From: Dehalococcoidia bacterium
GTDB taxonomy: Bacteria > Chloroflexota > Dehalococcoidia > Plut-88900
DNA: 64,000 nt
Direction of reading: 5' to 3'
Assembly (NCBI GenBank): GCA_965197645.1
Contig: OZ240219.1
Location: 864,001 to 928,000, forward strand
Below are positions 20,869 to 40,296 of the stretch, piece by piece. The position numbers and the translations under genes were made by a program. How positions within the stretch are numbered: the first letter of the stretch is position 1; every line of letters starts with the position of its first letter. The notes under the pieces are model-generated. The model saw nothing but the letters and a program-made list of their open reading frames with translations. It did not search any database and had not been told where the DNA came from.

Positions 20869-20988
20869 AGAGAAGGCCTACCCCCCAAGTCGTCCGAAAA
20901 AGCCGACGTTGCGCTGCCGCAGGGAGGATGCCGGTCAGCCAGGGCGGGCGAGAAGGGTGCTATTCGTTATGGTGGAGGTAAATGGCTA

Positions 20989-22167: not shown

Positions 22168-22180
22168 CTGGAGAGATGTC

Positions 22181-23359
22181 ATGGAATTCCGATTCACGAC
22201 CGAGGAGGAGCAGTTCAGGGGGGACCTCAAGGGGTTTCTGAAACAGGAGCTGCCCGAGGATTGGCGCTATGGCGTCATAGAGTCGTCCGAGGAAGACGTA
22301 GAGCTGGACAGGACCATGCGAAGGAAGCTGGCCCGGAAGGGCTGGCTGACCATGGGATGGCCCAAGGAGTACGGCGGACAGGACGCATCTCCCATCACCC
22401 AGTTCATCTTCAACGAGGAGATGGCCTACCATCGCGCTCCGGGCCGGGACGTCTCCGGCATCGGCATGCTGGGACCCACCCTCATGGTCCACGGCAGCGA
22501 GGAGCAGAAACGCAAGTACCTGGGTGACATCGCCCGTGGCGAGATCAACTGGTGCCAGGGCTTCAGCGAGCCCGGTTCAGGTTCCGACCTGGCATCCCTT
22601 CAGACCCGGGCCGACGAGGATGGCGACGATTACGTCATCAATGGACAGAAGATATGGACCAGCGGCGCACACCATGCCGATAGGTTCTTCATGCTCGCCC
22701 GCACCGATACCGAAGCTCCCAAGCACAGGGGCATCACCTTCTTCCTGGGTGATATGAAACAGCCCGGCATCGAGATACGTCCCATAGTCAGCATGACCGG
22801 TCGCCACAGTTTCAACGAGGTCTTCTTCGACGATGTGCGGGTATCCAAGAGAGACGTGGTGGGCGAGACGAATAGGGGTTGGTACGTGGCCATGACCCTG
22901 CTGGGATTCGAAAGGTCCATCGTCGAGTATCCTGCCGCCGCTCGAAGGGCGTTGGAAGAGCTGACCGACTTCGCCAGGGACACCCGGCGCAACGGCTCGG
23001 CCCTGATAGACGATGCCGGCGTGCGCAACAAGCTGGCGGAGATGGCGATAGAGGTGGACGTGGCCCGGCTGCTCTGCTACCGCGTGGCCTGGTTGTCCAG
23101 CCGGGGCGGTGTTCCCGACTCCGAAGGCTCCATGGCCAAGTCCTTTAGCACGGAGCTGATGCGCCGGTTGGGCCAGACCGGCATGGAGGTCATGGGCCTG
23201 TACGGCCAGCTGGGCAAGGGTTCCAAGTACGCCCCGTTGCAGGGAGGGTTCCGGCACGTCTATTTGGAGAGCGTGGGGCTCTGCATCGCCGGCGGCACGT
23301 CGGAAATTCAACGACACGTCATAGCCACCCGGGGACTGGGGCTGCCCCGGACGGGGTGA
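22181..23359 (+). CDS. Acyl-CoA dehydrogenase (alpha type)
   Basis: WCQGFSEPGSGSDLA, LGFER and GGTSEIQR motifs. Confidence 0.93.
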   Translation: MEFRFTTEEEQFRGDLKGFLKQELPEDWRYGVIESSEEDVELDRTMRRKLARKGWLTMGWPKEYGGQDASPITQFIFNEEMAYHRAPGRDVSGIGMLGPTLMVHGSEEQKRKYLGDIARGEINWCQGFSEPGSGSDLASLQTRADEDGDDYVINGQKIWTSGAHHADRFFMLARTDTEAPKHRGITFFLGDMKQPGIEIRPIVSMTGRHSFNEVFFDDVRVSKRDVVGETNRGWYVAMTLLGFERSIVEYPAAARRALEELTDFARDTRRNGSALIDDAGVRNKLAEMAIEVDVARLLCYRVAWLSSRGGVPDSEGSMAKSFSTELMRRLGQTGMEVMGLYGQLGKGSKYAPLQGGFRHVYLESVGLCIAGGTSEIQRHVIATRGLGLPRTG

Positions 23360-23533
23360 GGCACCGGGCGTAACGGTGTCGTCGGTCAGGCCAAATCATC
23401 ATCAATCGAGGTAGAGATATGAATGGGTGTGTGGTATCCTACCGAACGGCTTGAGGAAGGCCCCAACAAGAGTGTAATCCAAGACCGAATCACGCATTGC
23501 TAACGGCAACCAGGCAAACAAGGAGGTGTGGTA

Positions 23534-24667
23534 ATGGACCTAGGTCTTAGCGAAGAACAAGAGATGTTGAAGAGGACGGCTCGAGAGCTTCTGGAACGAG
23601 AGTGCCCCAAGACCCTGGTTAGGGACATGGAGGAGGACGATAAGGGATACTCCCCCGAGCTTTGGAAGCAGTTTGCCGATTCGGGATTCCTGGGGCTTCC
23701 CTTCCCAGAGCAGTACGGCGGGACCGGGTTCAGCTTCGTAGACCTGGCGATCCTGCTGGAGGAGTTCGGTAGGGCCCTTGTGCCTGGCCCCTACCTGTAT
23801 AACGTGGCCCTATCGGGCATGGCGATAGCCGATGCGGGCACCGAGGAGCAGAAGCAGGAGCATCTGCCCAAGATAGCCAGTGGCGAGTCCATCTTCACCT
23901 TCGCTCTTACCGAGCCCAGCGGCCGGTGGGACGCCGAGGGAGTGGGCTTGAGTGCGACAGCGGACGGCGATGACTTCATCCTCAACGGCGTGAAGCTGTT
24001 CATCCCCGACGCCCACGTCTCCGACCAGATGCTGGTTGTGGCCCGCACCAGCGAGTCAGACGACCCCAAAGAGGGCATCACCGTTTTTATCGTCGATACC
24101 AAGAGCGAGGGAATCAACACAGAGGTGCTCCAGACCATCGCCTCGGACAAGCAGTGCGAGGTCAACCTGGATAACGTCAGGGTGCCCCGCAGCAGCGTTC
24201 TCGGCGAGGTGGACGAGGGTTGGTCCATCGTGGAGCAGGCCCTGCGCCGCGGCGCCGTGGCCAAGTGCGCCGAGATGGTGGGCAACTCGGAGCAGGTGCT
24301 GGACATAACCGTCGAGTACGCCAAGAACCGGATACAGTTCGGGCGACCCATTGGCAGCTTCCAGGCGATCCAACACCACTGCGCCAACATGGCCACCGAC
24401 GTCGATGGCTCCCGCTTCATCACATACCAGGCCGCATGGAAGCTCTCTGAAGGGCTGCCCTGCGACAAGGAGATATCCATGGCCAAGGCTTGGGTGAGCG
24501 AGGCGTGCCGTAGGGTGGACGGGCTTGGCCACCAGGTCCACGGCGGTATCGGGTTCACCAAAGAGCACGATATGCAGCTCTTCTTCCGCCGGGCCAAGCA
24601 GGCCGAGCTCTTCTTCGGGGACGCCGACTTCCATCGAGAGAAGGTGGCCCAGGAGATCGGGCTGTAA
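23534..24667 (+). CDS. Acyl-CoA dehydrogenase (beta-subunit type)
   Basis: EEFGRALVPGP, RIQFGRPIGSFQAIQHHCA and HGGIGFTKEHD motifs; lacks the GTSE C-terminal motif. Confidence 0.9.
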   Translation: MDLGLSEEQEMLKRTARELLERECPKTLVRDMEEDDKGYSPELWKQFADSGFLGLPFPEQYGGTGFSFVDLAILLEEFGRALVPGPYLYNVALSGMAIADAGTEEQKQEHLPKIASGESIFTFALTEPSGRWDAEGVGLSATADGDDFILNGVKLFIPDAHVSDQMLVVARTSESDDPKEGITVFIVDTKSEGINTEVLQTIASDKQCEVNLDNVRVPRSSVLGEVDEGWSIVEQALRRGAVAKCAEMVGNSEQVLDITVEYAKNRIQFGRPIGSFQAIQHHCANMATDVDGSRFITYQAAWKLSEGLPCDKEISMAKAWVSEACRRVDGLGHQVHGGIGFTKEHDMQLFFRRAKQAELFFGDADFHREKVAQEIGL

Positions 24668-24726: not shown

Positions 24727-24808
24727 CTCTGAAACCGGGGGTTGGGCTCCCCTGCAACGGCTCGTGGATATGATACCGGCGCAAACGGAGCCTCAAGTAG
24801 GCCAAGGC

Positions 24809-25150
24809 ATGGACTGCATCTTCTGTAAGATAGCCGGCGGCGAGGTCCAGGGCGACGTTCTCCACCGGGACGACAAAGCCCTGGTGCTCAGAGACATCAA
24901 CCCCCAGGCACCCACCCACCTCCTCGTCCTTCCCATTGAGCACCTGGGGACGGTAATGGAGATAAACGAGTCCAACGCTTCCCTGATGGGGCATATGGTA
25001 CTGCTGGCCAATCGTATGGCCCGGCAGGAGGGCCTGGCCGACAAGGGCTACCGGCTGGCCATCAACTGCGGCGAAGAGGGTGGGCAGACAGTGGGGCACC
25101 TGCACATGCACGTTCTCGGCGGTAGGCAGCTCTCCGGACAGCTGGGCTGA
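24809..25150 (+). CDS. HIT family (HINT) nucleotide hydrolase
   Basis: MDCIFCKI, DINPQAPTH and HLHMH histidine triad. Confidence 0.95.
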   Translation: MDCIFCKIAGGEVQGDVLHRDDKALVLRDINPQAPTHLLVLPIEHLGTVMEINESNASLMGHMVLLANRMARQEGLADKGYRLAINCGEEGGQTVGHLHMHVLGGRQLSGQLG

Positions 25151-25187
25151 CCGGCACATCGGTCCCTTACAAGTTTTCTAATCTTCA

Positions 25188-25784
25188 ATGGTCTCCGACC
25201 CCGAGGCGCTGAGAGAGGCGATTAGCCACCTTCCCAGGGGCTTGACGGCCCACGTCGACCGCGTGGTGGACGTCGCCGTAGAGGTGGGACAACGCTTTGA
25301 GATCGATCCCGCCAGGGTGAAGGCTGCTGCTCTGCTCCACGATTTCGCTCGGCTGGTCAAGGGAGACAGGCTGCTGGAGCTTGCCGAGGAGTACGGTGTG
25401 CCCGTCACTTCCTTGGACGAGAGGATGCCGGTGTTCCTCCACGGCCCCGTCGGCGCTGAGATGGTTCGTAGAGAGCTACACGTAGAGGACGAAGAGGTGC
25501 TGCAAGCCATACGGCTTCACACCATCGGGGGCGCAGGCATGGGGCCGGTGGCGAAAGTGGTCTACCTGGCTGACAAGATCGAGCCCTCCAAGGACTCACG
25601 CTACCCATTCAACCCCGAGGTTAGGGAGCTGGCCAAGGTGGACATGGATAGGGCGATACTCAAGTTCGTCGACAACGACATATCCCGCTACATCGGTACG
25701 GGGGGTTACGTCCACCCGGCCACCATTGCGATGAGGAACGACCTTCTGACCGGCCTCGAAGCAGGGCAGGCCCTGCACCCATAA
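25188..25784 (+). CDS. yqeK: HD-domain YqeK-like symmetrical Ap4A hydrolase
   Basis: H...LLHD, LHGPVGA, AIRLHT and YLADKIEP motifs. Confidence 0.82.
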   Translation: MVSDPEALREAISHLPRGLTAHVDRVVDVAVEVGQRFEIDPARVKAAALLHDFARLVKGDRLLELAEEYGVPVTSLDERMPVFLHGPVGAEMVRRELHVEDEEVLQAIRLHTIGGAGMGPVAKVVYLADKIEPSKDSRYPFNPEVRELAKVDMDRAILKFVDNDISRYIGTGGYVHPATIAMRNDLLTGLEAGQALHP

Positions 25785-25942: not shown

Positions 25943-25971
25943 TTGACACCATAGAACATATATTCTATCTT
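25943..25971 (+). promoter_or_regulatory. Sigma70-type promoter overlapped by a LexA-like SOS box
   Basis: TTGACA-17 bp-TATCTT, with TAGAACATATATTCTA (25952-25967) in the spacer and -10. One mismatch from GAAC-N4-GTTC. Confidence 0.72.
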
Positions 25972-26087
25972 TCGCCTATCACATTGGATTGCTCGGCCTG
26001 CTGGTTTGCATTGGAGAGAATGGAATGGAGAGGTTCCCCATTGTCATACAGCCGTGGTCGAGATTTGTCCAACGACGGGAGGAAAGC

Positions 26088-26264
26088 ATGGGCATGTTCC
26101 CCAACGCACTGAAGAAGGGTCACTGGAAGGTGGCCGCCCTGTGTCTGCTCATCGGGATGCTGCGGGTGGCGATGAGACTCTCGCGGGAGGCGCTACTGAA
26201 ACTGGTCCGTGCTGCGAGACCGGCCAACGCATCGGAGAGGAGATCGCATGTCGGAAGGCGATAG
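26088..26264 (+). CDS. Small hypothetical protein, first gene of the phage-like operon
   Basis: GGAGG RBS; 58 aa with a hydrophobic helix; overlaps the next ORF. Confidence 0.5.
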   Translation: MGMFPNALKKGHWKVAALCLLIGMLRVAMRLSREALLKLVRAARPANASERRSHVGRR

Positions 26265-26595
26265 AGGAGATCGTCGCGACGGCCGAAAGACCGGCGCGCA
26301 CGACTTTTACGCCTCCGCGGTGAGCGAGGCCGAGCTATTGCGGCTCGATGAGGCCCAGGAGATGCAGGGCCTGGACGGCGAGATCGCCCTGTTGAGGACC
26401 AGGCTGCTCCGGCTGGCCGAAAACCAGCCGGAGGACACCGCTCTGCTCTTCCGGGGCCTGGAGCTGTTGGTCAAGGCCGTCGGTGCCAAGTACCGCCTAT
26501 CGTCCAAGTCCACAGAGGACCTGAGTACGGCGATAGAAGAGGTGTTGAAGAGCATCGGTGGGGCCATGGGACTGGAGGGTTTCAGTGGGAACTGA
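26248..26595 (+). CDS. Putative terminase small subunit-like protein
   Basis: Lies upstream of TerL; helical; HDFY...LDGEIALLRTRL resembles the (K)HG(F/L)Y...LxxEIAxLR pattern of small terminases. Confidence 0.5.
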   Translation: MSEGDRGDRRDGRKTGAHDFYASAVSEAELLRLDEAQEMQGLDGEIALLRTRLLRLAENQPEDTALLFRGLELLVKAVGAKYRLSSKSTEDLSTAIEEVLKSIGGAMGLEGFSGN

Positions 26596-26815
26596 CGGAC
26601 TGAAGCAGACCATCGCCAGATTCAAGAAGGCTCGAAGCGGGCCTGTGAAGGCAGGTGTCAACCTCAACCCCGATTCGGCCTTCGAGGCGATGCTGGACAT
26701 TCGCCTTCAGGAGCTTCGACGCCAGGTGGGAGAAGTGAGGAGCCGGGTCAACGGCCTGTTCTTCTTCGTACTCGGTGCGGCGATCGTGCAGGTTGCTCTC
26801 GGCTTCTTCGCTTAG
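26585..26815 (+). CDS. Small coiled-coil protein with C-terminal TM helix (holin/XhlA-like?)
   Basis: GTG start after GGAGGG; heptad region RLQELRRQVGEVRSRVN followed by hydrophobic LFFFVLGAAIVQVALGFFA. Confidence 0.55.
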   Translation: MGTDGLKQTIARFKKARSGPVKAGVNLNPDSAFEAMLDIRLQELRRQVGEVRSRVNGLFFFVLGAAIVQVALGFFA

Positions 26816-26820
26816 CTCAA

Positions 26821-28214
26821 ATGCCCATCAAGCATCGACTGCGGCCCTATCAGGCGGAGATCGGAGCTGCCGTACTGGACAGCGTTCTCAACAAGAGAGG
26901 GCTGACCTTTTCGGTCATCATCTCCAGGCAGGGAGGCAAGAACGAGCTTTCGGCCCAGCTGGAGGTGCTGCTCCTGACCCTGTTCATGAACATCGGTGGC
27001 AGCGCCGTGAAGGCGTCGCCTACTTTCAAGCCCCAGACGGTCAACAGCATCCTGAGGCTCAAGGAGCGGCTCGACGATGCGGGCTACGGAGGGATATGGG
27101 TGTCCGAGATGAGCTACATGGTGAGGCTAAACAGGGCACGGCAGATGTTCTTCAGCGCCGATTCGTCCAGCCACGTCGTGGGCGCCACCGCCGACGTCCT
27201 GCTGGAGATGGACGAAAGCCAGGACATCTCCAAGGAGAAGTACAACAAGGAGTTCAAGCCGATGGGGGCGGCCACCAACGTGACCACGGTCCACTTCGGC
27301 ACCGCCTGGGACGACTCAACCCTCCTGGAGGAGGTGAAGCAGTCCAACCTGGAGCTGGAACGCAAGGACCACGTACGCAGGCACTTCGAGTTCGACTGGC
27401 AGGAGGTCGCCAAACATGTGCCCGAGTACGGGAGGTACGTCGAAGGCGAACGGCAGCGGCTGGGGAAGGACCACCCACTGTTTCTGACCCAGTACGGTCT
27501 GTTGCCGCTTCACGGAGGCGGAGGTTTCCTGAACGCTGCTCAGCGAGCCCAGCTGCAGGGCGATCACCATCGCCTAAGCAGGCCGGAGGATGGAAAGGTC
27601 TACGTAGCCGGCATCGATCTGGCGGGAGAGGCCGAAGAGGGCCGGGACGCCGAGCTTCGGGCCATCAAGCCCAGGCAGGACTCGACGGTGGTGACCATCG
27701 GTGAGCTGGACTACTCCCAGGCGGCGCCCCCGGCGGATGAGCCGGCGATCAGAATAGTGGAGCATTACTGGTGGACTGGCCAACCCCACACCGAACTCTA
27801 CTCTCGCCTCGTTGACCTGCTGAAGACGGTGTGGCGATGCAGGCGTGTCGTTGTGGACGCCACGGGTGTCGGGCAGGGGTGAGCAGCTTTCTGGTCCGGG
27901 CCCTGGGATCCACCGTCGTCTCTCCCTTCGTGTTTACGTCCCAAAGCAAGTCGAAGCTGGGGTTCGATCTGCTGGCGGCCGTCAACTCGGGAAGGATGAA
28001 GATGTACCGTCCCGATGGCACGGAGGAGTACCGGCAGTTCTGGACGGAGGTTGAGAGGGCCAAGAGCTTCTACCGGGCCAATCAGACCGTCAACTTCTAC
28101 GTCGACCCCAGCGATGGTGATGACGACTTCCTGATGAGCATGGCACTGCTGGCCCAGTCGGCTGGCTACAGGCGCAGGAAGGCTTCGGGCAGGCTACGGA
28201 AGGGCTACGAGTGA
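26821..28214 (+). CDS. terL: Terminase large subunit, split by a 1-bp frameshift at 27876-27879
   Basis: Walker A SRQGGKNE, Walker B LLEMDE, nuclease motifs AGIDLAG and VVVDATGVG. The C-terminal DDFLMSMAL motif continues in another frame (27831-28214 ORF). Confidence 0.85.
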
Positions 28215-28288
28215 TGCCGGAGGGCTGAAAGGCGAAGACGAAGCAGCGAAGAGGTTAGCCGGAGTTATGGATTGCGCAGGAGAAGCAG

Positions 28289-28633
28289 ATGGATTTGCGG
28301 GAGTTCAGGGATCTGGTCGTCGAGGGCGTGGAAAGCACGGAACATTCCGCTCCCTCTCAGCCCGACCCAGGCCGAGACAGCCGCCCGGAGTTCGTTAGAT
28401 ACCGGGACGTCGGCTGCGAGGTATCGGAGTCGTGTCTCAAGTGTCCGTTGCCCCAGTGCCGCTACGACGATCCCGGCTGGCTGCGCAGGCAAATCAAGGA
28501 GAAGCGGGACCGGCAGGTGATAGAGGCCCACGAAGGAGAGGGGCTGGCGCCATCGGAGCTGGCGAAGAGATTTGGAGTGAGCCGCCGCACCATCCACCGG
28601 ATACTCAAAGCGCACAAAGGTCAAAGAAGATAG
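28289..28633 (+). CDS. Cys4 motif plus C-terminal HTH DNA-binding protein
   Basis: GCEVSESCLKCPLPQC followed by LAPSELAKRFGVSRRTIHRIL (HTH). Confidence 0.75.
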   Translation: MDLREFRDLVVEGVESTEHSAPSQPDPGRDSRPEFVRYRDVGCEVSESCLKCPLPQCRYDDPGWLRRQIKEKRDRQVIEAHEGEGLAPSELAKRFGVSRRTIHRILKAHKGQRR

Positions 28634-28654
28634 TAAAGATTTGGAGATATCACC

Positions 28655-29977
28655 ATGGAAAACATGACATTGCCGCAGCAGATCGAGAGGATGGACCGGG
28701 ACAGGCTGAGGATCTACGCCGAAAACCTGGACTTCTACAATGGCCTCCAGTGGCCCGGCAGGGCCCGCCGGGGCGAGCGGCGCCTCACCTTCAACTACTC
28801 CAAGGCCTTCATCGATAAGATCACCTCATATCTCATGGCCGACCTCACCATTTCCGTCGAACCCCTGGACAGCACCGAGGAGGCGGCTCGCAAGGCCGGG
28901 GAGATCGACGAGGTCATACAGCAGGTCTACGAGGCCAACCATCTCCAGCAGCTCGATTTCGATACGGAGCTGGACACCGCCATCCTGGGCGACGGGGTCT
29001 ACAAGGTCACCTGGGACCCCCGGGAGCAGCAGGTGAGGGTCTCCGCGCCCGACGTGCAGGGCATCTACGTGTGGTGGATTGGAGACGATGTCACTCGCGT
29101 CTGGAGGGTCGCCAGCCGGTACAAGCTCTCGGCCGAGGAGGTCGAGCTTCTCTACGGCGTCAAGAACGCAGCCTCCGGGTTGAACGGCAGGAACAGGGAA
29201 TCGATGGTTGTGGAGGTGTGGACCGCCACCGGCCTGGAGATATGGATCGACAACGCGCTCCACGAGCAACGACCCAACCCCTACGGCTTCATCCCCTTCA
29301 TCGTGTTTCCCAACGTGAGGGAGCCAAAGAAATTCTGGGGCGTCTCCGACATCCCGGCCATCATCGAACCGTCCAGGGAGCTGAACCGGGCCTTCTCCCA
29401 GCTATCGATGATCCTGGAGCTGTCCGGCAACCCGATAGCCGTGCTGGAGAACGTCGAGGACGCCCAGGACATAGCGGTGCAGCCGGGGGCCGTCTGGGAG
29501 TTGCCGGAGCGGGCCCGGGCCTATCTGCTGGACCTGCTTCAGGGTGGCGGAGTAAAGCTTCACACCGATTTCATAGGCCTGGTGTACAGGGCCATTCACG
29601 ATCTATCGGAATCGCCCCGAACCAGCTTCGGCGATAACAGCCAGGGGCTGTCCGGCGTCGCGCTGGAGATGGAGCTGAATCCCCTGATCCAGAAGATCCG
29701 CCGCAAGCGACTGGTCCGGACGGCCGTTTATCAGCGCCGCATAGCGATGATCCTCAAGATACTGGAGCAGAAGCGGGGACTGAGCTTCGGTAACGTGCGT
29801 TCCCGCATCGTCTGGGGGCCGATACTGCCCCAGGACAGGGGCAAGCTGGCCCAGGAGGAAGAGCTGCTGGTGCGATCGGGCATCCACAGCCGCCGCCGCT
29901 CCATGGAAAACCTGGGCGTCCCCGATCCTGAAGCAGAGCTGACGCGGATCAGGGAGGAGGACCCTGCTGGCGCCTAG
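28655..29977 (+). CDS. Phage portal protein (SPP1 gp6-like)
   Basis: 440 aa; DFYNGLQW, FNYSKAFID, NPYGFIPFIVFPN, WGVSDI, SGVAL and W..ILP.D motifs. Confidence 0.88.
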   Translation: MENMTLPQQIERMDRDRLRIYAENLDFYNGLQWPGRARRGERRLTFNYSKAFIDKITSYLMADLTISVEPLDSTEEAARKAGEIDEVIQQVYEANHLQQLDFDTELDTAILGDGVYKVTWDPREQQVRVSAPDVQGIYVWWIGDDVTRVWRVASRYKLSAEEVELLYGVKNAASGLNGRNRESMVVEVWTATGLEIWIDNALHEQRPNPYGFIPFIVFPNVREPKKFWGVSDIPAIIEPSRELNRAFSQLSMILELSGNPIAVLENVEDAQDIAVQPGAVWELPERARAYLLDLLQGGGVKLHTDFIGLVYRAIHDLSESPRTSFGDNSQGLSGVALEMELNPLIQKIRRKRLVRTAVYQRRIAMILKILEQKRGLSFGNVRSRIVWGPILPQDRGKLAQEEELLVRSGIHSRRRSMENLGVPDPEAELTRIREEDPAGA

Positions 29978-30798
29978 TCTCGTTTCCTGGCCAGATACGT
30001 ATAGTAGTTGCAGGCGGCGAAGAAGACGCCTCGGTCCGCGTTGGAGCGCTGGTCCTCCAGCCAGGCCTCCACCTGTTCCGAGGGCAGGACGCCGGCGTCG
30101 GCCACCATCGGGGCGTAGATCTCGGCGAAGTTCTTCCAGAACCTACCGCTCCCGACCTCCGAGTAGACGTTGGGCGTGACGCTTATCAGGTCCAGCCCAA
30201 CCTCTCCCAGCAGCTGCGGCATCTCCCGCATTACCAGGGGGTTACTGACCATCACCCCTATCATCCCCTCCTCCATCTTCCTCCCCAGCTCCCTGTCCGA
30301 GCTGCCGAAGGAGAGGGAGGCGTAGTCCCCATCGAATATGGCAATCGTGCCGCCGGTCCTGACCAGCCGGGACATCTCCTTGAGCACGGCCGCCGGTTCC
30401 GTGACGTGGCTTATCAGCGTATGGGCCATGGCTGCATCGAAGCCGGCGTCCGCCAGGCCGGTGGAGTGAGCATCTCCGATCCGAAACTCGATTTTCCCGC
30501 CGATTCCCTCCTCGTCGGCCAGACGTCGGGCGACCTCTATGAAGATGGGACTGTGGTCAACCCCGACGATCCGACCCTGAAAAGCGGGTCGTTGAGCCAG
30601 CCTCCGGGCACCAACTCCCGTCCCGCATCCCATGTCCAACACGCTGGCGTGGGGATCGAGGGCGATGGCTTCCAGGTAATCGTTCATCCACCGGATGTAG
30701 TTGGGGTCCCGACCTCGGAACTCCAGCCGCTCGATCATCGAGTTTAACGTGGAGTCGTCCAGGTCGGTGGCGTATTGAAAGACATCTCGAGGGGTCAT
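29974..30798 (-). CDS. Class I SAM-dependent methyltransferase
   Basis: VLDMGCGTG, GVDHS and GDA...FD motifs; GGGAGG RBS. Confidence 0.9.
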   Translation of the reverse strand: MTPRDVFQYATDLDDSTLNSMIERLEFRGRDPNYIRWMNDYLEAIALDPHASVLDMGCGTGVGARRLAQRPAFQGRIVGVDHSPIFIEVARRLADEEGIGGKIEFRIGDAHSTGLADAGFDAAMAHTLISHVTEPAAVLKEMSRLVRTGGTIAIFDGDYASLSFGSSDRELGRKMEEGMIGVMVSNPLVMREMPQLLGEVGLDLISVTPNVYSEVGSGRFWKNFAEIYAPMVADAGVLPSEQVEAWLEDQRSNADRGVFFAACNYYTYLARKRD

Positions 30799-30871
30799 GG
30801 CTACCTCCCGGTCCAATTATAACCCTGCGATTCGTCGTCGTTGGAAGGTCGGGCGTTGTGACACCAACCGG

Positions 30872-30901
30872 TTGACTGTATTAGAACTGATATTCTACTC
30901 T
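30872..30901 (+). promoter_or_regulatory. Second promoter overlapped by the same LexA-like box
   Basis: TTGACT-18 bp-TACTCT, with TAGAACTGATATTCTA (30882-30897). Confidence 0.72.
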
Positions 30902-30940
30902 GGCCACACGTAAATCAGCCCTATTTCACGGGAGGTGTCT

Positions 30941-31378
30941 ATGGCCGAGGATACGATGGAGGAAGTGGTGGAACAGACCGAGACGGATGTAGAGGACGCT
31001 CCGGGCTTCCAGGCCGATACCGGTACAAGCGTAGAGGAGCTGGAGGGCCAGGTCAGCCGGCTTCGCGCCGACCTGGAAAAGCGGGATGAGGAGCTGGCTT
31101 CGTTGAGAGAGCAGATGACCAACTCCGCGGCCCGTTACAGGACAGCCATACTGTCCGGCGCACCCGAGGTGCCCGAGGAGCTGGTCCGCGGAGACACGGT
31201 GGAGGAGCTGGACGCATCCCTGGTCCAGGCCAGGGAGATTGTAGAGAAGGTCGCCCAACGGCTCGGTTCCCAGGTGGCATCCGAGCAGGTGCCCGCAGGC
31301 TCGCCGCCTCGTAGGCCGCCGGACCTGGTCGCAATGTCGCCCCACGAAAAGATCCTGTACGCACTGCAGAGATCGTAA
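30941..31378 (+). CDS. Putative capsid scaffolding protein
   Basis: Acidic N-terminus, coiled coil, C-terminal MSPHEKI helix; immediately upstream of the capsid gene; GGAGG RBS. Confidence 0.7.
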   Translation: MAEDTMEEVVEQTETDVEDAPGFQADTGTSVEELEGQVSRLRADLEKRDEELASLREQMTNSAARYRTAILSGAPEVPEELVRGDTVEELDASLVQAREIVEKVAQRLGSQVASEQVPAGSPPRRPPDLVAMSPHEKILYALQRS

Positions 31379-31422
31379 ACACACAGCAGCCGGAGTTACC
31401 GAGTAGCGAAAGGAGCTAAGAC

Positions 31423-32313
31423 ATGGCTTTAACTTTAGCGGAGGGCGCAAAGCTCTCAAACGACGTACTAGTTGCCGGGGTAATCGAGACCATCATCAAC
31501 GAAAGTCCGGTCCTTCAGGCTATGCCCTTCATCGAGATAGTGGGCAACAGCCTGACCTACAACCGGGAGAACGCCGCACCTTCAGTGAGCTTCTACAACG
31601 TGGGCGACACCTGGACAGAGTCCACCCCCACCTTTACCCAGGTGAGCGCCACGCTGAAGATACTGGGCGGAGATGCCGACGTGGACAACTACCTCTCCTC
31701 CACTCGCAACAACGTGCAGGACCTGGAAGCGGCGGTGGTCCAGCTCAAGGCCAAGGCCCTTCAGCAGAAGTTCGACGACACCTTCATCAACGGTGAAGTA
31801 ACCACCGATGCCAAGTCCTTCGACGGCATCGAAGAGCTGACAGTCACCAAGCAAATAGTGAGCATGGGCGCCAACGGCGGCACCCTCACCCTCGAGAAGC
31901 TGGACGAGCTGATAGATAGGGTGAAAGGCGGCAAACCCGATATGCTCATCATGAGCAAGCGCAGCCGCAGGAAGCTCTCCTCGCTGGCCCGGGCCGCAGG
32001 CAGTGGAGTCGTGGAATCGGACCGGAACGAGTTCGGCATGATGGTCCAGTTCTACGATGGCATCGCCATCGGCATCAGCGACTGGGTCTCCGACGCCAAG
32101 ACCGTGGGCACCAACAGCGACTGCTCTACAGTCTACGGCCTTCAGTACGGCGAAGGCGGCGTTGCCGGCCTTAGCGGCCCCGGTGGGTTGCAGGTGGAGC
32201 GAATCGGGAGCCTCGAGACCCGGGACGCCACCCGCACCAGGGTGAAGTGGTACGTGGCGTTGGCCCTGTTCAACACCCTCAAGCTGGCCAAGCTTACCGG
32301 AGTCAGGGACTAG
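31423..32313 (+). CDS. Major capsid protein (HK97-type)
   Basis: 296 aa; GVIETII..SPVL..MPF, YNRE, LGGDADVD, FINGE...FDGI and LDELID motifs typical of phage MCPs; position after the scaffold gene. Confidence 0.88.
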   Translation: MALTLAEGAKLSNDVLVAGVIETIINESPVLQAMPFIEIVGNSLTYNRENAAPSVSFYNVGDTWTESTPTFTQVSATLKILGGDADVDNYLSSTRNNVQDLEAAVVQLKAKALQQKFDDTFINGEVTTDAKSFDGIEELTVTKQIVSMGANGGTLTLEKLDELIDRVKGGKPDMLIMSKRSRRKLSSLARAAGSGVVESDRNEFGMMVQFYDGIAIGISDWVSDAKTVGTNSDCSTVYGLQYGEGGVAGLSGPGGLQVERIGSLETRDATRTRVKWYVALALFNTLKLAKLTGVRD

Positions 32314-32327
32314 GACGAAGAAGACGA

Positions 32328-32372
32328 GACAAGGGGCGACGCCTCATCGAAGGCGTCGCCCCGGCGCTTGTC
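32328..32372 (+). terminator. Strong GC hairpin after the capsid gene
   Basis: GACAAGGGGCGACGCCT-CATCGA-AGGCGTCGCCCC..CTTGTC. Confidence 0.55.
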
Positions 32373-32404
32373 CCCGGCATTGCGGCCGATGAAGAGGAGG
32401 AACG

Positions 32405-33043
32405 ATGACCACGATAACCGATATCAGAGGCAGGGTCCGCACGGACCTCCACGATGAAGACTCGCAGGACTACCGCTGGACCGATGCCGAGCTGGACAGG
32501 CACATAGGCCGGGCGGTGAACGAGCTCAGCCTGGCGATCCCCCTGGAGGCGAAGGCTACACTCACCACCGCGGCCGGCAGCAGGGACGTCTCCATAGCCG
32601 GTCTCTCGGATCGGGTGGCCGTCGAAGCCGTGGAGTACCCCGCGGGAAAGTATCCGCCGGCCTACGTCAGGTTCAGCATCTGGATGGACACGCTGACCAT
32701 GCACATCGATGGCGTCCCCGTGGCCGGTGAGACCGTCGCCGTCCACTACACCAGGCCTCATACCCTGGATGCCGCCGGTTCGACGGTGCCTCCGCCCCTG
32801 GAGGAGCTGGTGGCCACCGGCGCAGCCGGCTACGCTGCCCTGGAGTGGGCCAGCTTCGCCACAAACCGGATAAACGTCGGCGGCGAGGAGGTATGTAGGC
32901 AGTACCTGGCCTGGGGGCAAGACCGGATCAGCGCGTTTCTGAGTGGCCTGGCGGAACGTGGTCGCAGGAACACGGTCAGGGCACGGAGCCTTTACACCCC
33001 CTCCCGCCTACCCGAGGACAAGACTACGGTGATGGGGCCGTAA
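32405..33043 (+). CDS. Putative head-completion/adaptor protein
   Basis: N-terminal IRGRVRTDLHD...RWTDAELDRHIGRAV helix pattern typical of phage adaptor proteins; follows the MCP gene. Confidence 0.65.
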   Translation: MTTITDIRGRVRTDLHDEDSQDYRWTDAELDRHIGRAVNELSLAIPLEAKATLTTAAGSRDVSIAGLSDRVAVEAVEYPAGKYPPAYVRFSIWMDTLTMHIDGVPVAGETVAVHYTRPHTLDAAGSTVPPPLEELVATGAAGYAALEWASFATNRINVGGEEVCRQYLAWGQDRISAFLSGLAERGRRNTVRARSLYTPSRLPEDKTTVMGP

Positions 33044-33044
33044 G

Positions 33045-35036
33045 ATGAGGACCCTGTCATCGACTCTTCTGGAAGCCCAGAAAAGCGCTTCCAGCGTGCC
33101 CCACGTGAAGGTAGAAGTGTTCGACCGGATCGGCGGCGTGCCTCGTCTGCGGTTCGAACGGCACTACACCGGCTCCGAGCCCGAGGACTTTCACGCCGCC
33201 ACCATACCCTCGGACGGCTCTCTCATCAGGGCCAGAGTGGCTGGCTCCGGCCGACATTACATCTACTTGCAACGGGTCCCCAATCCCACTCCAACCAGCG
33301 ATTTTGGCTCCTGGACCCGGGCGATTCAGGTCTCCAGTGTCGCCAACATGGCCATCTGCAGCGAGGGTTCCAGAGTGCTGTTGGCCCACGTCTCCTCCAA
33401 CAAGAGGAGCATTTACGCCAGGCAGAGCGATGATAACGGACAGACCTACGGGCACAGCGTCCTGATAGCCACCTCAGCAACATCCGTCAAGTGGATGGCT
33501 GTTGCCCTGAAACCCGATGGTACCGCGTTATTCATCTACACCACGGGCGCTGCCAATCTATACACGTCGAAGCGGACCTCCAGCGGATGGTCGAATCCCA
33601 GGCCGTGGGCCAGCGGGATGTCGGATATCAGCGGCGTCAACGTGGTCTATGACAACGACTGGAACGTGGTCTTGGCCGGCAAGGATAGTCGGGGCAGGCC
33701 CGGCGTGTGGACGGCCATCTATGGAGATGGATCGTCCCGAGCGGCGAACACCTGGTCGAGCCGTAAAAACCTGACCATAGCCGACAACGGTTCCGGTCTC
33801 ACCTTCGAGTCCCCCTTCATCGCCAAGCCCGGCTCCTATCGGGTCACCTTCGTCGAACGATACAGGGGGTCCTCCTCCTACGATCTGCCGTTTCTCTCTT
33901 TCACCATGCCCAACTCCGGTTTCTCCAGTAACTTGTGGCGAGAACCCGTCCCCCTCAATCTCACCAGTACGAGGGGTATAGCCGTAGCCCACGGCGCCGA
34001 TCGGGTCTGGCTCTCTACCCCCTCCGGAGTGTGGTCGGCTGTGCGAGACGCAGCGCCCCTGGACATCAGCCAGGACGTGCTGAGCGTCAAACAGTCTCTA
34101 TCGGCCTACTCCGGTGAGATGAAGATGGAGCTGCGCAATGATGATGGGAAATACAACAGCGTCGGCGCCGGCCCCCTGGACATGCTGCAAAAAGGATCGG
34201 AGATACGGCTGGGCCTTGGCTATCGTACCAGCGCCGGTATCGAGGTCTCCTCCGGGTCCACCGTTTGGATAGAGAGCTGGGAATACCGGCGTCACGGCGG
34301 GAGGTCCACCATAGCTATCACCGCCAGGGACTGGTGGGGACTGTTGGAGACCTGGAAGGCTCGCAGGCAGTTCACCTGGGCGGAGGGCGACAGCAACGTT
34401 GCACCTCTCCTGGCCGCCGTTCTGGCCCGCGCAGGACTGGGGTTTGTCCCCGGAGCCTCGGTAAGCGCCGCCATGTCCAGCCACTCTCCGTCGTTCACCA
34501 TACATCCCGGGGAGTCTGCGGCTACGGCCGTGAAGCGTCTGCTATCGATGGTGCCGGACGTGGTGTTCTTCTCCTTTACGAGGTGCACCTCTCTCAACCC
34601 CCGCGCCTCCGACCCCAGCGCCTACAGCTACGGCACCGACCACCCGGTCCTGGAGTCCCGACACCGAGACCCGGCGCCTGAATTCAACCGGGTGCAGGTC
34701 TTCGGCGCATCCGTATTCAACGAGAGCTATGACTGGACCGACATGCACCTGGTCTATGATCGACTCAGGCAGGTACACGACCTCAATCTGAACACCTCGC
34801 AAAAGGCCGTCGCCCAGGTGGCCAGGGAACTGAGGCACCAGACAATGAGCAGCGACCGGGGCGAGATCACCGTCCCCGCCAACGCCGGTCAGGAGCTCTA
34901 CGACGTCGTGGACGTGACCGATCCGGCGGCCGGCATGCAGGCGATCAAGCGGCGGGTCATGGGCCTCCGCACCGAGTACCGGACGAATGGCAACCGGCCC
35001 GGATTTACCCAGACCCTGTATCTGGGCAATGTGTAA
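33045..35036 (+). CDS. Virion structural protein: propeller-like N-terminus plus baseplate hub-like C-terminus
   Basis: Asp-box-like SDDNGQTY and Trp/Gly beta repeats in the N-terminus; LRNDDGKY, NRVQVFG and ELYDVVDVTD...TQTLYLG resemble hub/Tal C-termini. Confidence 0.55.
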   Translation: MRTLSSTLLEAQKSASSVPHVKVEVFDRIGGVPRLRFERHYTGSEPEDFHAATIPSDGSLIRARVAGSGRHYIYLQRVPNPTPTSDFGSWTRAIQVSSVANMAICSEGSRVLLAHVSSNKRSIYARQSDDNGQTYGHSVLIATSATSVKWMAVALKPDGTALFIYTTGAANLYTSKRTSSGWSNPRPWASGMSDISGVNVVYDNDWNVVLAGKDSRGRPGVWTAIYGDGSSRAANTWSSRKNLTIADNGSGLTFESPFIAKPGSYRVTFVERYRGSSSYDLPFLSFTMPNSGFSSNLWREPVPLNLTSTRGIAVAHGADRVWLSTPSGVWSAVRDAAPLDISQDVLSVKQSLSAYSGEMKMELRNDDGKYNSVGAGPLDMLQKGSEIRLGLGYRTSAGIEVSSGSTVWIESWEYRRHGGRSTIAITARDWWGLLETWKARRQFTWAEGDSNVAPLLAAVLARAGLGFVPGASVSAAMSSHSPSFTIHPGESAATAVKRLLSMVPDVVFFSFTRCTSLNPRASDPSAYSYGTDHPVLESRHRDPAPEFNRVQVFGASVFNESYDWTDMHLVYDRLRQVHDLNLNTSQKAVAQVARELRHQTMSSDRGEITVPANAGQELYDVVDVTDPAAGMQAIKRRVMGLRTEYRTNGNRPGFTQTLYLGNV

Positions 35037-35132
35037 AGAAGGCGTTCCAGGCTTCCTAGCCTTGAGCCCGACTTGGGCTCGCCGAAGTATGGGTGTCTGG
35101 GCCTTGGTCGACGACTTGGAAGGAGAGTACCA

Positions 35133-35345
35133 ATGCAGACCAGAAAAGGCGTCATAAAGGGTTTCAACTCAAGCAGCTATCTGGCCACGGTGCAGATCTC
35201 CGGCAGCCTCTCGGTCTGGCTGGAGGGCGTTCCCGTAGCCCGAAACATCCCATCGGGGCAGATGGTGACCGGCAGGAACTGCGCAGTCCTCTTCTTCGAT
35301 CCCAGCAACCCCAAAGACGGCGTGGTAACGGCAGTGTACACCTGA
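35133..35345 (+). CDS. Small OB-fold-like protein (spike/gpV N-terminal-like)
   Basis: 70 aa; GVIKGF..ATVQI...WL.GVPV...GRNCAVLF.D..NP.DGVV.AVY pattern. Confidence 0.55.
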   Translation: MQTRKGVIKGFNSSSYLATVQISGSLSVWLEGVPVARNIPSGQMVTGRNCAVLFFDPSNPKDGVVTAVYT

Positions 35346-35472
35346 TCGCCACCCCGCTCGCTCCCTACTCCCGTGCTATAATGCCCGAGCCGTGGCGTTG
35401 AGGGCGTTCCTGAAAGGAGCGCCCGATTTTCATTGTGAACTATAGGCGAGTACGCTCCGGCGCGGAGTTCCC

Positions 35473-36723
35473 TTGCAGCGTCCCGTAGATCGGCCCTCGG
35501 CCTACCGGTGGGTCATCGTATTTTCGCTCACTTCATCGGTGGGCACCACCCTCTCTATTCTGTTCATCCTGGGACTACTCCTACCCGAGATATCAAAAGA
35601 TCTGGACCTTTCGCCCTCTAAACAAGGCTGGCTGGGTTCCTCGGTACTGCTGGCAAACCTGTTCCTGTGCATACCCAGCAACCTGGTCACATCCAGGTTC
35701 AAGCCCAGACGTACCGTAACCCTGCTCTTCATCTGCATAGGAGGGTTCACGTTGCTCCAGGGGTGGGCGTCCGCTTTGGCAGTCCTCATCGTGGGACGGG
35801 TCTTATGCGGGGTCTGCTTCACGGCCACCCAGTCGCCCAGGGCGACGCTGATACAGCAGTGGACCCCTCGTCACCGGCTCCCCTTTACCAACGGCGTGAT
35901 CTTCGCCGGCATAGACCTGATTATGGGACTGGCCCTGTTCTTGACCCCCCAGATTCAGGACTGGGTGGGCGGCTGGCAGAACACACTTTACGTCTGGGGA
36001 GCCATATCCTTGGCCCTCACCGTCGTATGGCTGTTGGTCGGAAGGGAGAGGGAGACCGCCGAGTTCACGGCGCGGATGCGATCTCAAACCCAGGCTCCCC
36101 TCAAGGGGGTGCTGAAGTATAAACAGCTGTGGATCATGGGCTTCGGCATGATGGGCGCCATGCTGGGCCAGACCGCCTTGCAGACCTTCTGGCCGACCCT
36201 GGCCGAAAAGGAGTTGGGAGTAACACCGACCATCGTTGGCCTCGCTCTGGGCATGACCACCCTCGCTGCCGCACCCACCGATTTTCTGGTCAATGCAGTA
36301 CCCACCCTCGTCCGAAGGCAGACGATAATACTGGCCGTCGGTGGGTTGATGTCCACCGGCATCTTCCTGGCCCTCCTCTACGTAGAGTCCGAACCGCTGA
36401 TCGTCCTGCTGAGCGTATTTAAGGGGTTCTCCTTCTCTTTCTTCCCGGTACTGATGATAATGGTGTTTCTGCTGCCGGGAATCAAACCGCGAGAGGTGGG
36501 CTTGGGGCTGGCATTCATGGAGACCTCCATCTGGGTCGGGTCCGCCATCGGCCCCCTGTTGGTCGGGTTCCTGCAGGAGGCCACCGATAACCTTCGCTTC
36601 GCACTTACGGTGTCCTCCTTCTCCCCCCTATCCCTGATCATAGCGGCCTTCTTGATTCAAGCTGTACGGCGTTCCACTCCATCGGAGATACCCGCCGGCA
36701 CCCTGGCCAAAACGGGCTCGTGA
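35473..36723 (+). CDS. MFS transporter
   Basis: About 12 hydrophobic segments; LLPEISKDLDLS..QG, GRVLCG and GSAIGPLLVG motifs. Confidence 0.85.
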   Translation: MQRPVDRPSAYRWVIVFSLTSSVGTTLSILFILGLLLPEISKDLDLSPSKQGWLGSSVLLANLFLCIPSNLVTSRFKPRRTVTLLFICIGGFTLLQGWASALAVLIVGRVLCGVCFTATQSPRATLIQQWTPRHRLPFTNGVIFAGIDLIMGLALFLTPQIQDWVGGWQNTLYVWGAISLALTVVWLLVGRERETAEFTARMRSQTQAPLKGVLKYKQLWIMGFGMMGAMLGQTALQTFWPTLAEKELGVTPTIVGLALGMTTLAAAPTDFLVNAVPTLVRRQTIILAVGGLMSTGIFLALLYVESEPLIVLLSVFKGFSFSFFPVLMIMVFLLPGIKPREVGLGLAFMETSIWVGSAIGPLLVGFLQEATDNLRFALTVSSFSPLSLIIAAFLIQAVRRSTPSEIPAGTLAKTGS

Positions 36724-39892: not shown

Positions 39893-40138
39893 ATGCGAGG
39901 ACCTAACGGAGAAAAGAGACCTAGGGACCCCATCGCCCGTGCTGTCATGGTAGCAAAGATAGCTACTGGCGAGATTGAAGAACAGCTGCCATCTAAGCGG
40001 CGCAACGGCGGCCTGAAAGGCGGCCCTGCCCGTGCTAAGGCCCTCAGCCCAGAGCGGCGCAGGGAGATAGCAAAAAAGGCTGGTTTGTCGCAAAAGAAAA
40101 ACTTGACTGCGGAGGAGAAGGGCGGAATCGAACCGTAA
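39893..40138 (+). CDS. Small basic protein commonly associated with IS1/IS1595-type elements
   Basis: KRPRDP...IATGE...GGLKGGPARAKALSPERRREIAKKA. Confidence 0.75.
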   Translation: MRGPNGEKRPRDPIARAVMVAKIATGEIEEQLPSKRRNGGLKGGPARAKALSPERRREIAKKAGLSQKKNLTAEEKGGIEP

Positions 40139-40204: not shown

Positions 40205-40296
40205 AAGGCCCTGGCTTAGTCCAGGGCCTTCCCTATTCTATCAACCCCCTATACGGTATTGACAAGCTGAGAAGCCTGAACGTAAGGTGTACGCGA

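What the first reader, a model, noticed from the sequence alone, without database searches (positions are those of the whole stretch)
25943..35345. Candidate domesticated gene-transfer-agent-like particle locus in a Dehalococcoidia-like genome
Seen: about 9.4 kb encoding only packaging and particle genes (TerS-like, TerL, Cys4-HTH, portal, scaffold, MCP, adaptor, hub-like, OB spike-like). It sits between ordinary host genes (HIT/yqeK and an MFS). I found no integrase, att repeat, CI/Cro, replication or endolysin gene. Composition looks host-like, unlike the nearby IS cargo. The ORFs are full length with good RBSs apart from one 1-bp shift, and both operons have matching operator-containing promoters. 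Established: GTAs such as RcGTA are head/tail clusters without replication or integration genes, under host control. Inference: this is a vertically inherited, host-regulated DNA-packaging particle of a lineage distinct from alphaproteobacterial GTAs. I cannot check the literature here, so novelty is unconfirmed.
Basis: partly seen in the sequence, partly recalled or inferred. Interest (0 to 1): 0.92.

Follow-up and report, generated by a model that had tools for sequence, protein, structure and literature searches.

The report
Domesticated SOS-controlled phage particle genes
A small set of virus-derived genes for a DNA-packaging capsid with a stub tail has been inherited with the chromosome across much of the bacterial class Dehalococcoidia, and probably builds a host-controlled, gene-transfer-agent-like particle.

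Summary

One unrelated SAM methyltransferase lies inside the cluster on the opposite strand.

- **Distribution:** the capsid gene is nearly always single copy. It occurs in 235 of 401 Dehalococcoidia genomes.
- **Conservation:** it is about as conserved as RpoB, and its dN/dS is 0.05-0.15.
- **Phylogeny:** the MCP+portal tree shares 11 of 22 splits with the RpoB tree, against a chance expectation of 0.17.
- **Genome context:** gene order is fixed, but cellular genes have been inserted between modules. In some genomes the modules lie 47-170 kb apart or more. No tyrosine integrase lies nearby.
- **Regulation:** both promoters carry an operator like those upstream of this genome's lexA, imuB and radical-SAM repair genes.

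Best reading: a domesticated, SOS-induced DNA-packaging particle that resembles a gene transfer agent. No transfer, packaging content, RNA or particles are shown.

This genome's own TerL is frameshifted, and its closest complete relative lacks the tail genes. I found nothing in print.

The parts
25943..25971 (+). Promoter P1: TTGACA-17-TATCTT. The LexA-type box TAGAACATATATTCTA (25952-25967) fills the spacer and overlaps the -10 hexamer.
26209..26595 (+). Small terminase-like protein (128 aa; the true start is uncertain).
   Evidence: Conserved in relatives. The G025 ortholog hits phrog_1889 TerS at 6.6e-9. The window copy itself has no family hit.
26558..26815 (+). Small ORF (85 aa) with a hydrophobic C-terminus. 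Its role is unknown.
   Evidence: Relatives were found only in family f1. dN/dS is 0.27-1.06. No family hit.
26821..28214 (+). Large terminase, split by a 1-bp frameshift in a GGGG run near 27871-27874. The two pieces are 26821-27882 and 27831-28214.
28289..28633 (+). Cys4 zinc-ribbon plus HTH regulator, similar to phage late activators.
28655..29977 (+). Portal protein.
29974..30816 (-). SAM-dependent methyltransferase. It is a lineage-specific insertion and not part of the particle set.
   Evidence: At this position it is missing in all relatives examined: 20 loci and 80 loci.
30872..30901 (+). Promoter P2: TTGACT-18-TACTCT, with the LexA-type box TAGAACTGATATTCTA (30882-30897) in the same register as in P1.
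   Evidence: The consensus scan did not call it.
30935..31378 (+). Scaffolding protein (coiled coil).
   Evidence: weak hits. Its position before the MCP is conserved.
31423..32313 (+). Major capsid protein (HK97 type).
32405..33043 (+). Head-to-tail adaptor (SU10 type).
33045..35036 (+). Tail hub. The N-terminal half is a beta-propeller; the C-terminal half has the gp27 / Mu gp44 / VgrG-type hub fold.
35133..35345 (+). 70-aa OB-like putative spike or plug protein. The ORF is also open from TTG at 35073.
   Evidence: Leads only: PDB 4jiw at E 0.095, and an Atlas cluster in which 24% of members carry Phage_base_V, score 0.91.
35402..35424 (+). Terminator-like hairpin after the last gene.

Best explanation
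This is a domesticated, chromosomally fixed remnant of a tailed phage, reduced to about ten genes. They are TerS, TerL, a Cys4-HTH regulator, portal, scaffold, capsid protein, adaptor, a hub fused to a beta-propeller, and a small OB-like protein. The set has been inherited vertically in Dehalococcoidia under purifying selection.

Proposed mechanism:
1. DNA damage leads to LexA self-cleavage.
2. Two LexA-boxed promoters are de-repressed. P1 drives TerS, TerL, HTH and portal. P2 drives scaffold, MCP, adaptor, hub and OB.
3. The HTH protein may further activate these genes.
4. Procapsids assemble on the portal.
5. TerS and TerL fill the heads with cellular DNA, because no replicating phage genome exists.
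6. The adaptor, hub and OB protein close the portal as a very short tail, with the propeller acting as the likely binding module.
7. The released particles would carry host DNA to other cells, as a gene transfer agent does.

Shown here: the gene identities, the distribution, co-divergence with the host, purifying selection, dispersal of the modules, the absence of nearby integrases, and the likeness of the operator to the genome's SOS boxes.

Inferred: LexA binding, particle formation, what DNA is packaged, release, and delivery.

In this genome TerL carries a frameshift, so this copy may be inactive.
For: **Distribution**
- The MCP is found in 30 of 41 relatives.
- It is found in 235 of 401 class genomes of at least 90% completeness, and in 212 of 372 high-quality ones. 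It is almost always one match per genome.
- The pattern follows clades: f1 9/9, f6 21/23 and f16 31/34, against f22 0/34 and f24 0/11.

**Co-occurrence in the same 41 genomes**
- Portal 34, TerL 32, hub 31. Six genomes lack all four genes.

**Conservation and phylogeny**
- MCP identity tracks RpoB identity: 74-80% against 74-79% within the family, and 52-73% against 59-66% across the class.
- The MCP+portal tree and the RpoB tree (25 genomes) share 11 of 22 splits. Label shuffles give a mean of 0.17 and a maximum of 3.

**Selection**
- dN/dS is 0.05-0.15 for MCP, 0.06-0.15 for portal and 0.13-0.20 for the hub. RpoB gives 0.04-0.08 and MFS 0.06-0.12.
- dS values are similar to those of the host genes.

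**Genome context**
- Gene order and strand are constant in all 80 loci. Inserts of 0-9 kb lie between modules.
- Of the 10 insert proteins scanned, 8 matched a Pfam family, mostly cellular ones: DAO oxidoreductase, aminotransferase and a homocysteine-synthesis enzyme among them.
- The head and packaging modules are 170 kb apart in G037 and 47 kb apart in G016. In G030 they lie on different contigs.
- Family-level flanks are conserved: HIT and HD upstream, MFS and SDR downstream.
- No tyrosine recombinase lies within 35 kb of any module, among the 150 of 222 matches that were listed.

**Relation to phages**
- The closest cultured phages are at most 39.8% identical in the MCP (288 records).
- In a 46-row MCP tree, none of the 5 cultured phages used as outgroups falls inside the Dehalococcoidia clade (99/94 support).
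- The nearest cultured phage, Ab18, is annotated with a tape-measure protein, tail terminator and tail-assembly proteins, and the closest phages have 43-60 kb genomes. I found no counterpart to those tail genes here.
- The 33 IMG/VR hits are contigs of 4-23 kb. Of these, 32 have the same gene order.

**SOS control**
- The strict box occurs only at the two promoters.
- Related boxes (at most 1 mismatch to AGAAC-N4-GTTCT) lie upstream of lexA (PF01726 + PF00717), two imuB-type genes, two radical-SAM repair-type genes and DUF5131. A PHP-domain, dnaE2-like gene follows one of the imuB genes.
- In relatives, such boxes lie within 260 bp upstream of scaffold in 14 of 46 cases, MCP in 10 of 51, HTH in 5 of 21 and TerS in 4 of 11. 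None lies upstream of adaptor, hub or OB (0 of 58). Background is 0.012 per 280 bp.
Against: - **TerL frameshift in this genome.** Contigs from runs X1 and X2, which may be the source sample, show the same sequence. A strain about 97% identical from another study (X3) has one more base there, which by my frame arithmetic restores the reading frame.
- **Tail genes missing in the closest relative.** G002, the closest complete relative, has no hub gene in its genome. No adaptor lies beside its MCP, and only a scrap of the OB gene remains.
- **Decay elsewhere.** G014 has stop codons in the hub and fragmented MCP and portal matches, and G015 has stop codons in portal and TerL. G017 has several frameshifts, though this may reflect assembly quality.
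- **Gaps in distribution.** The MCP was not found in 166 of 401 class genomes, including whole families.
- **Weak deep signal.** With one representative of family f1, patristic distances do not correlate (r 0.10; 1690 of 5000 permutations as high). G037 is placed differently in the two trees. The careful RpoB search did not finish, so a quick tree was used.
- **Possible transfer between classes.** Three genomes of other Chloroflexota classes sit inside the Dehalococcoidia MCP clade. This could mean transfer or an older origin.
- **LexA-type boxes are a minority.** Most relatives' promoters lack one. recA in this genome has only a 3-mismatch variant.
- **No obvious delivery apparatus.** No tail tube, fibres or lysis gene were found, so delivery and release are unexplained.
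- **TerL in genus g4 is hard to read.** It is multi-copy there, and its dS does not track the host's.
- **No direct evidence.** There is no RNA, protein or particle evidence.
Confidence: 0.6

Rival explanations
1. A domesticated particle with a function other than gene transfer. It could be an SOS-induced killer or defective particle like PBSX, which packages host DNA but does not deliver it productively. It could also be a device for DNA disposal or release, or an altruistic lysis device.
For: This reading rests on the same conservation, selection and SOS-box evidence as the best explanation. The tail is minimal: only an adaptor, a hub and a small OB protein. No tube or fibres were found in the window, which leaves injection doubtful. 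That PBSX is SOS-induced is recalled knowledge and comes from no call.
Against: TerS, TerL and portal are kept under purifying selection. That argues the packaged DNA matters. The hub-plus-propeller is also conserved, with dN/dS 0.13-0.20 and presence in 31 of 41 genomes. That argues for attachment to a target. Neither point separates killing from transfer.
Confidence: 0.22
2. Remnants of a common family of temperate Chloroflexota phages. On this reading they integrated many times and are decaying, with no host function.
For: - There are lesions in G000 (TerL), G002 (tail), G014 and G015.
- The element was not found in many families.
- Related clusters in other Chloroflexota classes carry an endolysin-like gene and a somewhat different gene order.
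- Deep tree resolution is poor.
Against: - The element is single copy, and the same roughly ten genes are retained everywhere.
- Trees are congruent within and between families.
- dS equals that of host genes, and dN/dS is as low as 0.05.
- Host flanks are conserved across a family.
- Cellular genes lie between modules, and modules lie up to 170 kb apart.
- No integrase lies nearby.
Confidence: 0.1
3. A capsid-forming satellite (cf-PICI-like) or other mobile island that borrows tails from a helper phage.
For: The cluster encodes a head and packaging set with few tail genes. This superficially resembles capsid-forming islands. That comparison is recalled and was not tested against their sequences.
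Against: - No integrase and no flanking repeats were found.
- No replication or regulatory switch genes were found in the window.
- The element has fixed positions and co-diverges with the host.
- The cluster has its own hub and adaptor.
Confidence: 0.03

Closest known systems
RcGTA-type gene transfer agents of Alphaproteobacteria (knowledge recalled; two abstracts seen in the listing: PMC6821227, PMC9765227)
   Same: - A phage-derived head, packaging and tail set without replication or integration genes.
- Vertical inheritance across a large clade, under purifying selection and host regulatory input.
- Genes may lie at several loci.
   Different: - It lies in another phylum.
- I found no tail tube, tape measure or head spikes in the window. 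The tail is reduced to an adaptor, a hub and an OB protein.
- An SOS-type operator sits directly on both promoters.
- Function is untested.
- I did not compare sequences with RcGTA directly.
PBSX-like defective prophages of Bacillus (recalled)
   Same: A chromosomal, non-replicating element induced by DNA damage, whose particles package host DNA.
   Different: PBSX has a long contractile tail and is confined to a narrow group. This set is class-wide, and its tail is a stub.
Siphophages with the nearest capsid proteins: Pseudomonas phage Ab18 (Abidjanvirus), Xanthomonas Xp15, Clostridium vB_CtyS-FA70, Streptomyces Rowa
   Same: An HK97-type MCP at 38-40% identity. Ab18 also shares the TerS-TerL-portal...scaffold-MCP-adaptor order.
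   Different: These are complete 43-60 kb viruses. Ab18 is annotated with head-closure, neck, terminator, tape-measure and tail-assembly genes.
Podophage SU10 structural families (Pfam PF17236, PF24175)
   Same: The MCP and adaptor hit the SU10 families, at 2.7e-8 and 3.7e-11.
   Different: No match to a nozzle, needle or fibre family turned up. The tail protein here has a gp27 / Mu gp44-type hub fold.

Membership tests
Gene transfer agent (functional class) | Phage-like structural and packaging genes encoded in the cell's chromosome | tested here: met
Gene transfer agent (functional class) | No replication, integration or lysogeny module belongs to the element | tested here: met
   The window flanks are cellular genes. 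No tyrosine recombinase lies within 35 kb in the relatives, among 150 of 222 listed matches. No att-like repeat was found. Serine recombinases were not searched.
Gene transfer agent (functional class) | Vertical inheritance with purifying selection | tested here: met
   Deep nodes are unresolved.
Gene transfer agent (functional class) | Expression under host control | tested here: inconclusive
   The operator resembles the genome's SOS boxes. LexA binding and induction were not measured. Boxes are present in only a minority of relatives.
Gene transfer agent (functional class) | Particles carry random host DNA, less than is needed to encode the particle | not testable with these tools
   Only indirect evidence: modules lie 47-170 kb apart or on separate contigs in some genomes. 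One headful could therefore not carry the whole set there.
Gene transfer agent (functional class) | Delivery of DNA to recipient cells | not testable with these tools
   None.
Intact temperate prophage | Integrase, repressor switch, replication, lysis and a complete tail in one block | tested here: not met
   For contrast, see phage Ab18.
SU10-like podophage structural module | SU10-type MCP and adaptor together with a nozzle, needle and fibres | tested here: not met
   The MCP and adaptor families are matched. The only tail protein has a hub fold, not a nozzle. No fibre or needle family was hit.
LexA (SOS) regulon of this organism | An operator like those upstream of lexA and DNA-damage genes, placed over the promoter | tested here: met
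   Each cluster box departs from the AGAAC-N4-GTTCT consensus at one position (ATTC in place of GTTC).

The most novel reading that the evidence does not exclude
An ancient gene transfer agent that is induced by the SOS response. It would be an independent domestication, spanning the class and perhaps reaching into other Chloroflexota. Its particle would be minimal: a head with only an adaptor, a hub and a spike as tail. That would suit cells reported to lack a peptidoglycan wall (recalled for Dehalococcoides, not tested here). It would be a main route of DNA exchange in Dehalococcoidia.
Probability: 0.35. Interest if true: 0.9.

Novelty: new variant of a known kind. Interest (0 to 1): 0.8.

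Why it matters
Known gene transfer agents come from only a few lineages, and each is an independent domestication of a phage. A further one in Chloroflexota, conserved about as well as RNA polymerase across a whole class, would be a notable addition. So would its wiring to the DNA-damage response and its reduction to a head with a stub tail.

- It would add a new architecture to the known kinds.
- It would point to a likely route of gene flow in abundant soil, groundwater and subsurface bacteria.
- It would warn virus-mining pipelines, because 33 IMG/VR 'viral' contigs match this capsid gene and 32 of them carry the same gene set.

The idea can be tested directly by induction and sequencing of protected DNA.

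Tried and rejected
- **Family scans.** Pfam and PHROG scans of the window's TerL halves, the 128-aa ORF and the 85-aa ORF gave nothing. Identities came from orthologs, profiles and folds instead.
- **PDB profile searches.** The searches for the hub, the OB protein and the TerS-like protein gave only chance-level hits. The exception is a weak PAAR-like lead, 4jiw at E 0.095.
- **Complex prediction.** A prediction of hub residues 340-663 with the OB protein gave 'no answer' (score 0.02). This is no evidence either way.
- **Sequencing runs.** No RNA holder was listed, so expression could not be examined. The laid runs were contigs only.
- **Deep congruence by distances.** This failed: r was 0.10 with one representative per family f1.
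- **TerL dN/dS in genus g4.** It is unreliable because of paralogs.
- **Programmed frameshifting in TerL.** I considered this and think it unlikely. The site is a 4-G run followed by TGA, with no canonical slippery heptamer. This is my reading and was not tested.
- **tRNA-Leu island.** I considered whether the cluster is part of an island at tRNA-Leu (40114-40202). MFS, SDR and InhA-like genes lie between them, and the same flanks occur in relatives, so I rejected it.
- **Literature.** I ran searches for 'gene transfer agent' with Dehalococcoidia, Chloroflexi and Chloroflexota. I also searched Dehalococcoides with prophage and capsid, Dehalogenimonas with terminase, LexA with Dehalococcoides, and GTA with domesticated and podovirus.
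  - They found no description of this element.
  - Of 10.64898/2026.09.15.751708 I saw the outline with abstract, passages and section 10. It concerns another element, IME1.
  - Of PMC12507015 and 10.1101/2022.02.18.481119 I saw single passages only.
  - That the Dehalococcoides LexA box is of the GAAC-N4-GTTC type is recalled. No call confirmed it.
- **Genus identities.** My guess that genus g70 is Dehalogenimonas and g45 is Dehalococcoides rests only on genome sizes.
- **Rows left out of the trees.**
  - G001, G013, G014 and G023 have partial or broken MCP.
  - G021 has no RpoB match.
  - G004, G015, G019, G020 and G028 have no MCP.
  - The six genomes that lack all four genes were also left out.
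- **Unpublished genome.** The class tally includes one unpublished genome, G214, as one of the 235 positives. No other claim rests on it.

Full report
**What is in the window.** Between HIT and HD genes (24764-25784) and an MFS transporter (35473-36723) lie eleven + strand ORFs and one minus-strand ORF.

- **Direct family hits.**
  - Portal: PF05133 7.3e-17; phrog_64 3.2e-34.
  - Capsid protein: phrog_212 2.5e-72; SU10_MCP 2.7e-8.
  - Adaptor: SU10_adaptor 3.7e-11.
  - HTH protein: HTH_23 2.2e-6; phrog_836 'late transcriptional activator' 5.6e-6.
  - A tail protein: phrog_1887 1.6e-5.
- **Terminase.** It gave no family hit. Its contiguous ortholog from G002, folded with 13 aligned orthologs (pLDDT 86), matches full-length large terminases best: Sf6 gp2, HK97, D6E and T4 gp17, E about 1e-15. 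The stretch R-Q-G-G-K-N-E is invariant but for the first G. I read it as a Walker A motif (from recall). A profile search puts terminase nuclease domains first.
- **TerS-like ORF.** The 128-aa ORF upstream has an ortholog that hits PHROG small-terminase families at 6.6e-9.
- **Hub.** The 663-aa protein folds at pLDDT 91. Its C-terminal half matches baseplate hubs: Mu gp44, the MuSo2 43-kDa protein, gp27/VgrG and eCIS hubs, at E 1e-13 to 1e-14. Its N-terminal half is a beta-propeller.
- **OB-like protein.** The last gene encodes a conserved 70-aa protein with only weak leads to spike-type proteins.
- **Foreign insertion.** A SAM methyltransferase lies on the opposite strand at 29974-30816. It is missing at this place in all relatives examined.

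**Broken gene.** TerL is in two frames here because one base is missing in a GGGG run. In 21 relatives the gene is one ORF of 447-484 aa, although G017's match is split. Contigs of runs X1 and X2, which may be the source sample, are identical to the window. A strain about 97% identical from another study (X3) has one more base behind 27872. By my frame arithmetic, this joins the two halves in one frame.

**Distribution.**
- The record titles of 80 related loci are nearly all Dehalococcoidia or unclassified Chloroflexota MAGs.
- The MCP is found in 30 of 41 relatives.
- It is found in 235 of 401 class genomes of at least 90% completeness, nearly always once. Families are either mostly positive or wholly negative. 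One of the positives, G214, is unpublished.
- Portal, TerL and hub follow the same pattern: 34, 32 and 31 of 41. Six genomes lack all four.
- In a sample of 301 genomes from the phylum, 20 genomes outside the class carry MCPs of 47-55% identity. In 5 of the 6 I fetched, a portal lay beside the MCP, with TerL in three and scaffold in three. One of them also has an endolysin-like gene.

**Vertical inheritance.**
- MCP identity falls with host distance in step with RpoB.
- A tree of MCP+portal and a tree of RpoB for the same 25 genomes share 11 of 22 splits. These include almost the whole topology of family f1 and four deeper clades. Label shuffles give a mean of 0.17 and a maximum of 3.
- The careful RpoB search did not finish, so the quick tree was used.
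- Distances among deep lineages do not correlate, and G037 is discordant.
- Pairwise dN/dS (Nei-Gojobori, my script) is 0.05-0.15 for MCP and 0.06-0.15 for portal. It is 0.13-0.20 for the hub, 0.12-0.35 for the adaptor, 0.23-0.37 for scaffold and 0.28-0.41 for HTH. RpoB gives 0.04-0.08 and MFS 0.06-0.12. dS values resemble those of the host genes.

**Not a virus genome.**
- Order and strand of the genes are the same in all 80 loci. Inserts of 0-9 kb separate the modules.
- I scanned ten insert proteins. Eight matched a Pfam family, mostly cellular ones.
- Even the X3 strain has a 2371-bp insert between HTH and portal.
- Head and packaging modules are 170 kb apart in G037 and 47 kb apart in G016. 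In G030 they lie on different contigs. In G008 they are at 75 kb and 2.97 Mb of a 3.26-Mb contig.
- No tyrosine recombinase among the listed matches lies within 35 kb of a module.
- Cultured phages reach at most 39.8% MCP identity. The five used as outgroups fall outside the Dehalococcoidia clade. One of them, Ab18, is annotated with a full tail that has no counterpart here.
- The IMG/VR hits are short contigs, and 32 of 33 carry the same gene set.

**Regulation.**
- P1 (TTGACA-17-TATCTT) and P2 (TTGACT-18-TACTCT) each hold TAGAAC-N4-ATTCTA in the spacer, overlapping the -10 hexamer. This strict motif occurs nowhere else in the genome.
- Boxes of the type AGAAC-N4-GTTCT lie in front of several SOS-type genes in this genome:
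  - lexA itself;
  - two imuB-type genes, one of them followed by a PHP-domain (dnaE2-like) gene;
  - two radical-SAM genes;
  - a DUF5131 gene;
  - the switch regions of two Xre-type elements.
- This is the make-up of an SOS regulon. recA has only a poor match.
- In relatives the box, often followed directly by TAyyAT, recurs in front of the scaffold/MCP, HTH and TerS genes at 20-30 times background. It was never seen in front of adaptor, hub or OB, and it is present in only a minority of loci.

**Reading.** The simplest account is a phage remnant that the host lineage has kept for a function needing a DNA-filled head with an attachment device, switched on by DNA damage. That is what gene transfer agents and PBSX-like particles are. 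I cannot tell transfer from killing or other uses.

Lesions argue that the function is dispensable and is sometimes lost:
- G000: TerL frameshift.
- G002: no hub gene in the genome, and no adaptor beside the MCP.
- G014 and G015: stop codons.
- Loss from whole families of the class.

Noticed in passing
Genus g4 genomes, e.g. L155:5147-6532, L157:2779-3936, and G006 genome-wide: The g4 genomes hold four or more full-length TerL paralogs away from the cluster. They also hold many fragmentary copies of a repeat that contains a segment like the TerL nuclease domain. G006 alone has 137 DNA matches at 67-97% identity to one 2.1-kb query. A 385-aa ORF aligns to the TerL profile over 86 columns at E 8.8e-15.
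   Followed up: partly
window 28623-28643 (run X3): A strain about 97% identical, from another study, has 2371 extra bases between the HTH and portal genes. The module boundaries therefore take up insertions even between close strains. It also has the extra base that, by my arithmetic, keeps TerL in frame.
   Followed up: no
L193-L198 (Chloroflexota outside the class): Related MCP clusters at 49-54% identity occur in other classes; 5 of the 6 fetched have a portal beside the MCP. Three of the six have LexA-type boxes in front of TerL or portal. In L198 an amidase/endolysin-like gene (phrog_1493, 8e-18) and a 916-aa protein follow the MCP. Three of these genomes nest inside the Dehalococcoidia MCP clade.
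   Followed up: partly
G000 genome 1903278 and 2952644 (outside the window): Two near-identical divergent Xre-type HTH switch regions each carry a LexA-type box (AGAACGCyTGTGCTACTAT). One lies about 2 kb from a tyrosine recombinase at 2950659. They may be SOS-inducible integrative elements.
   Followed up: no
L077, L080, L083, L084, L085, L090, L091, L104: A conserved site AGCGAACGTGCGTTCGTAGCG (with small variants) lies 1.1-5.9 kb downstream of the OB gene (in L104, of the hub) in eight loci. The gene it precedes was not examined.
   Followed up: no
window 26558-26815: An 85-aa ORF between the TerS-like gene and TerL ends in a hydrophobic stretch. Relatives were seen only in family f1, and it evolves fast (dN/dS 0.27-1.06). 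A membrane or holin-like role is only a guess.
   Followed up: no
window 40114-44000: tRNA-Leu(GAG) at 40114-40202 is followed by a low-GC patch (0.51-0.58). The patch holds a DDE transposase-like ORF at 42018-42914 (rve_3, 6e-6).
   Followed up: partly
window 18503-24667: A row of five paralogous ORFs of 379-392 aa lies upstream of the locus. I scanned three and all are acyl-CoA dehydrogenases.
   Followed up: no
L009 8962-9051 (G002): A 30-residue scrap of the OB gene lies directly after the MCP. No adaptor lies in this locus, and no hub gene was found in the genome. This looks like a deletion scar of about 3 kb.
   Followed up: partly
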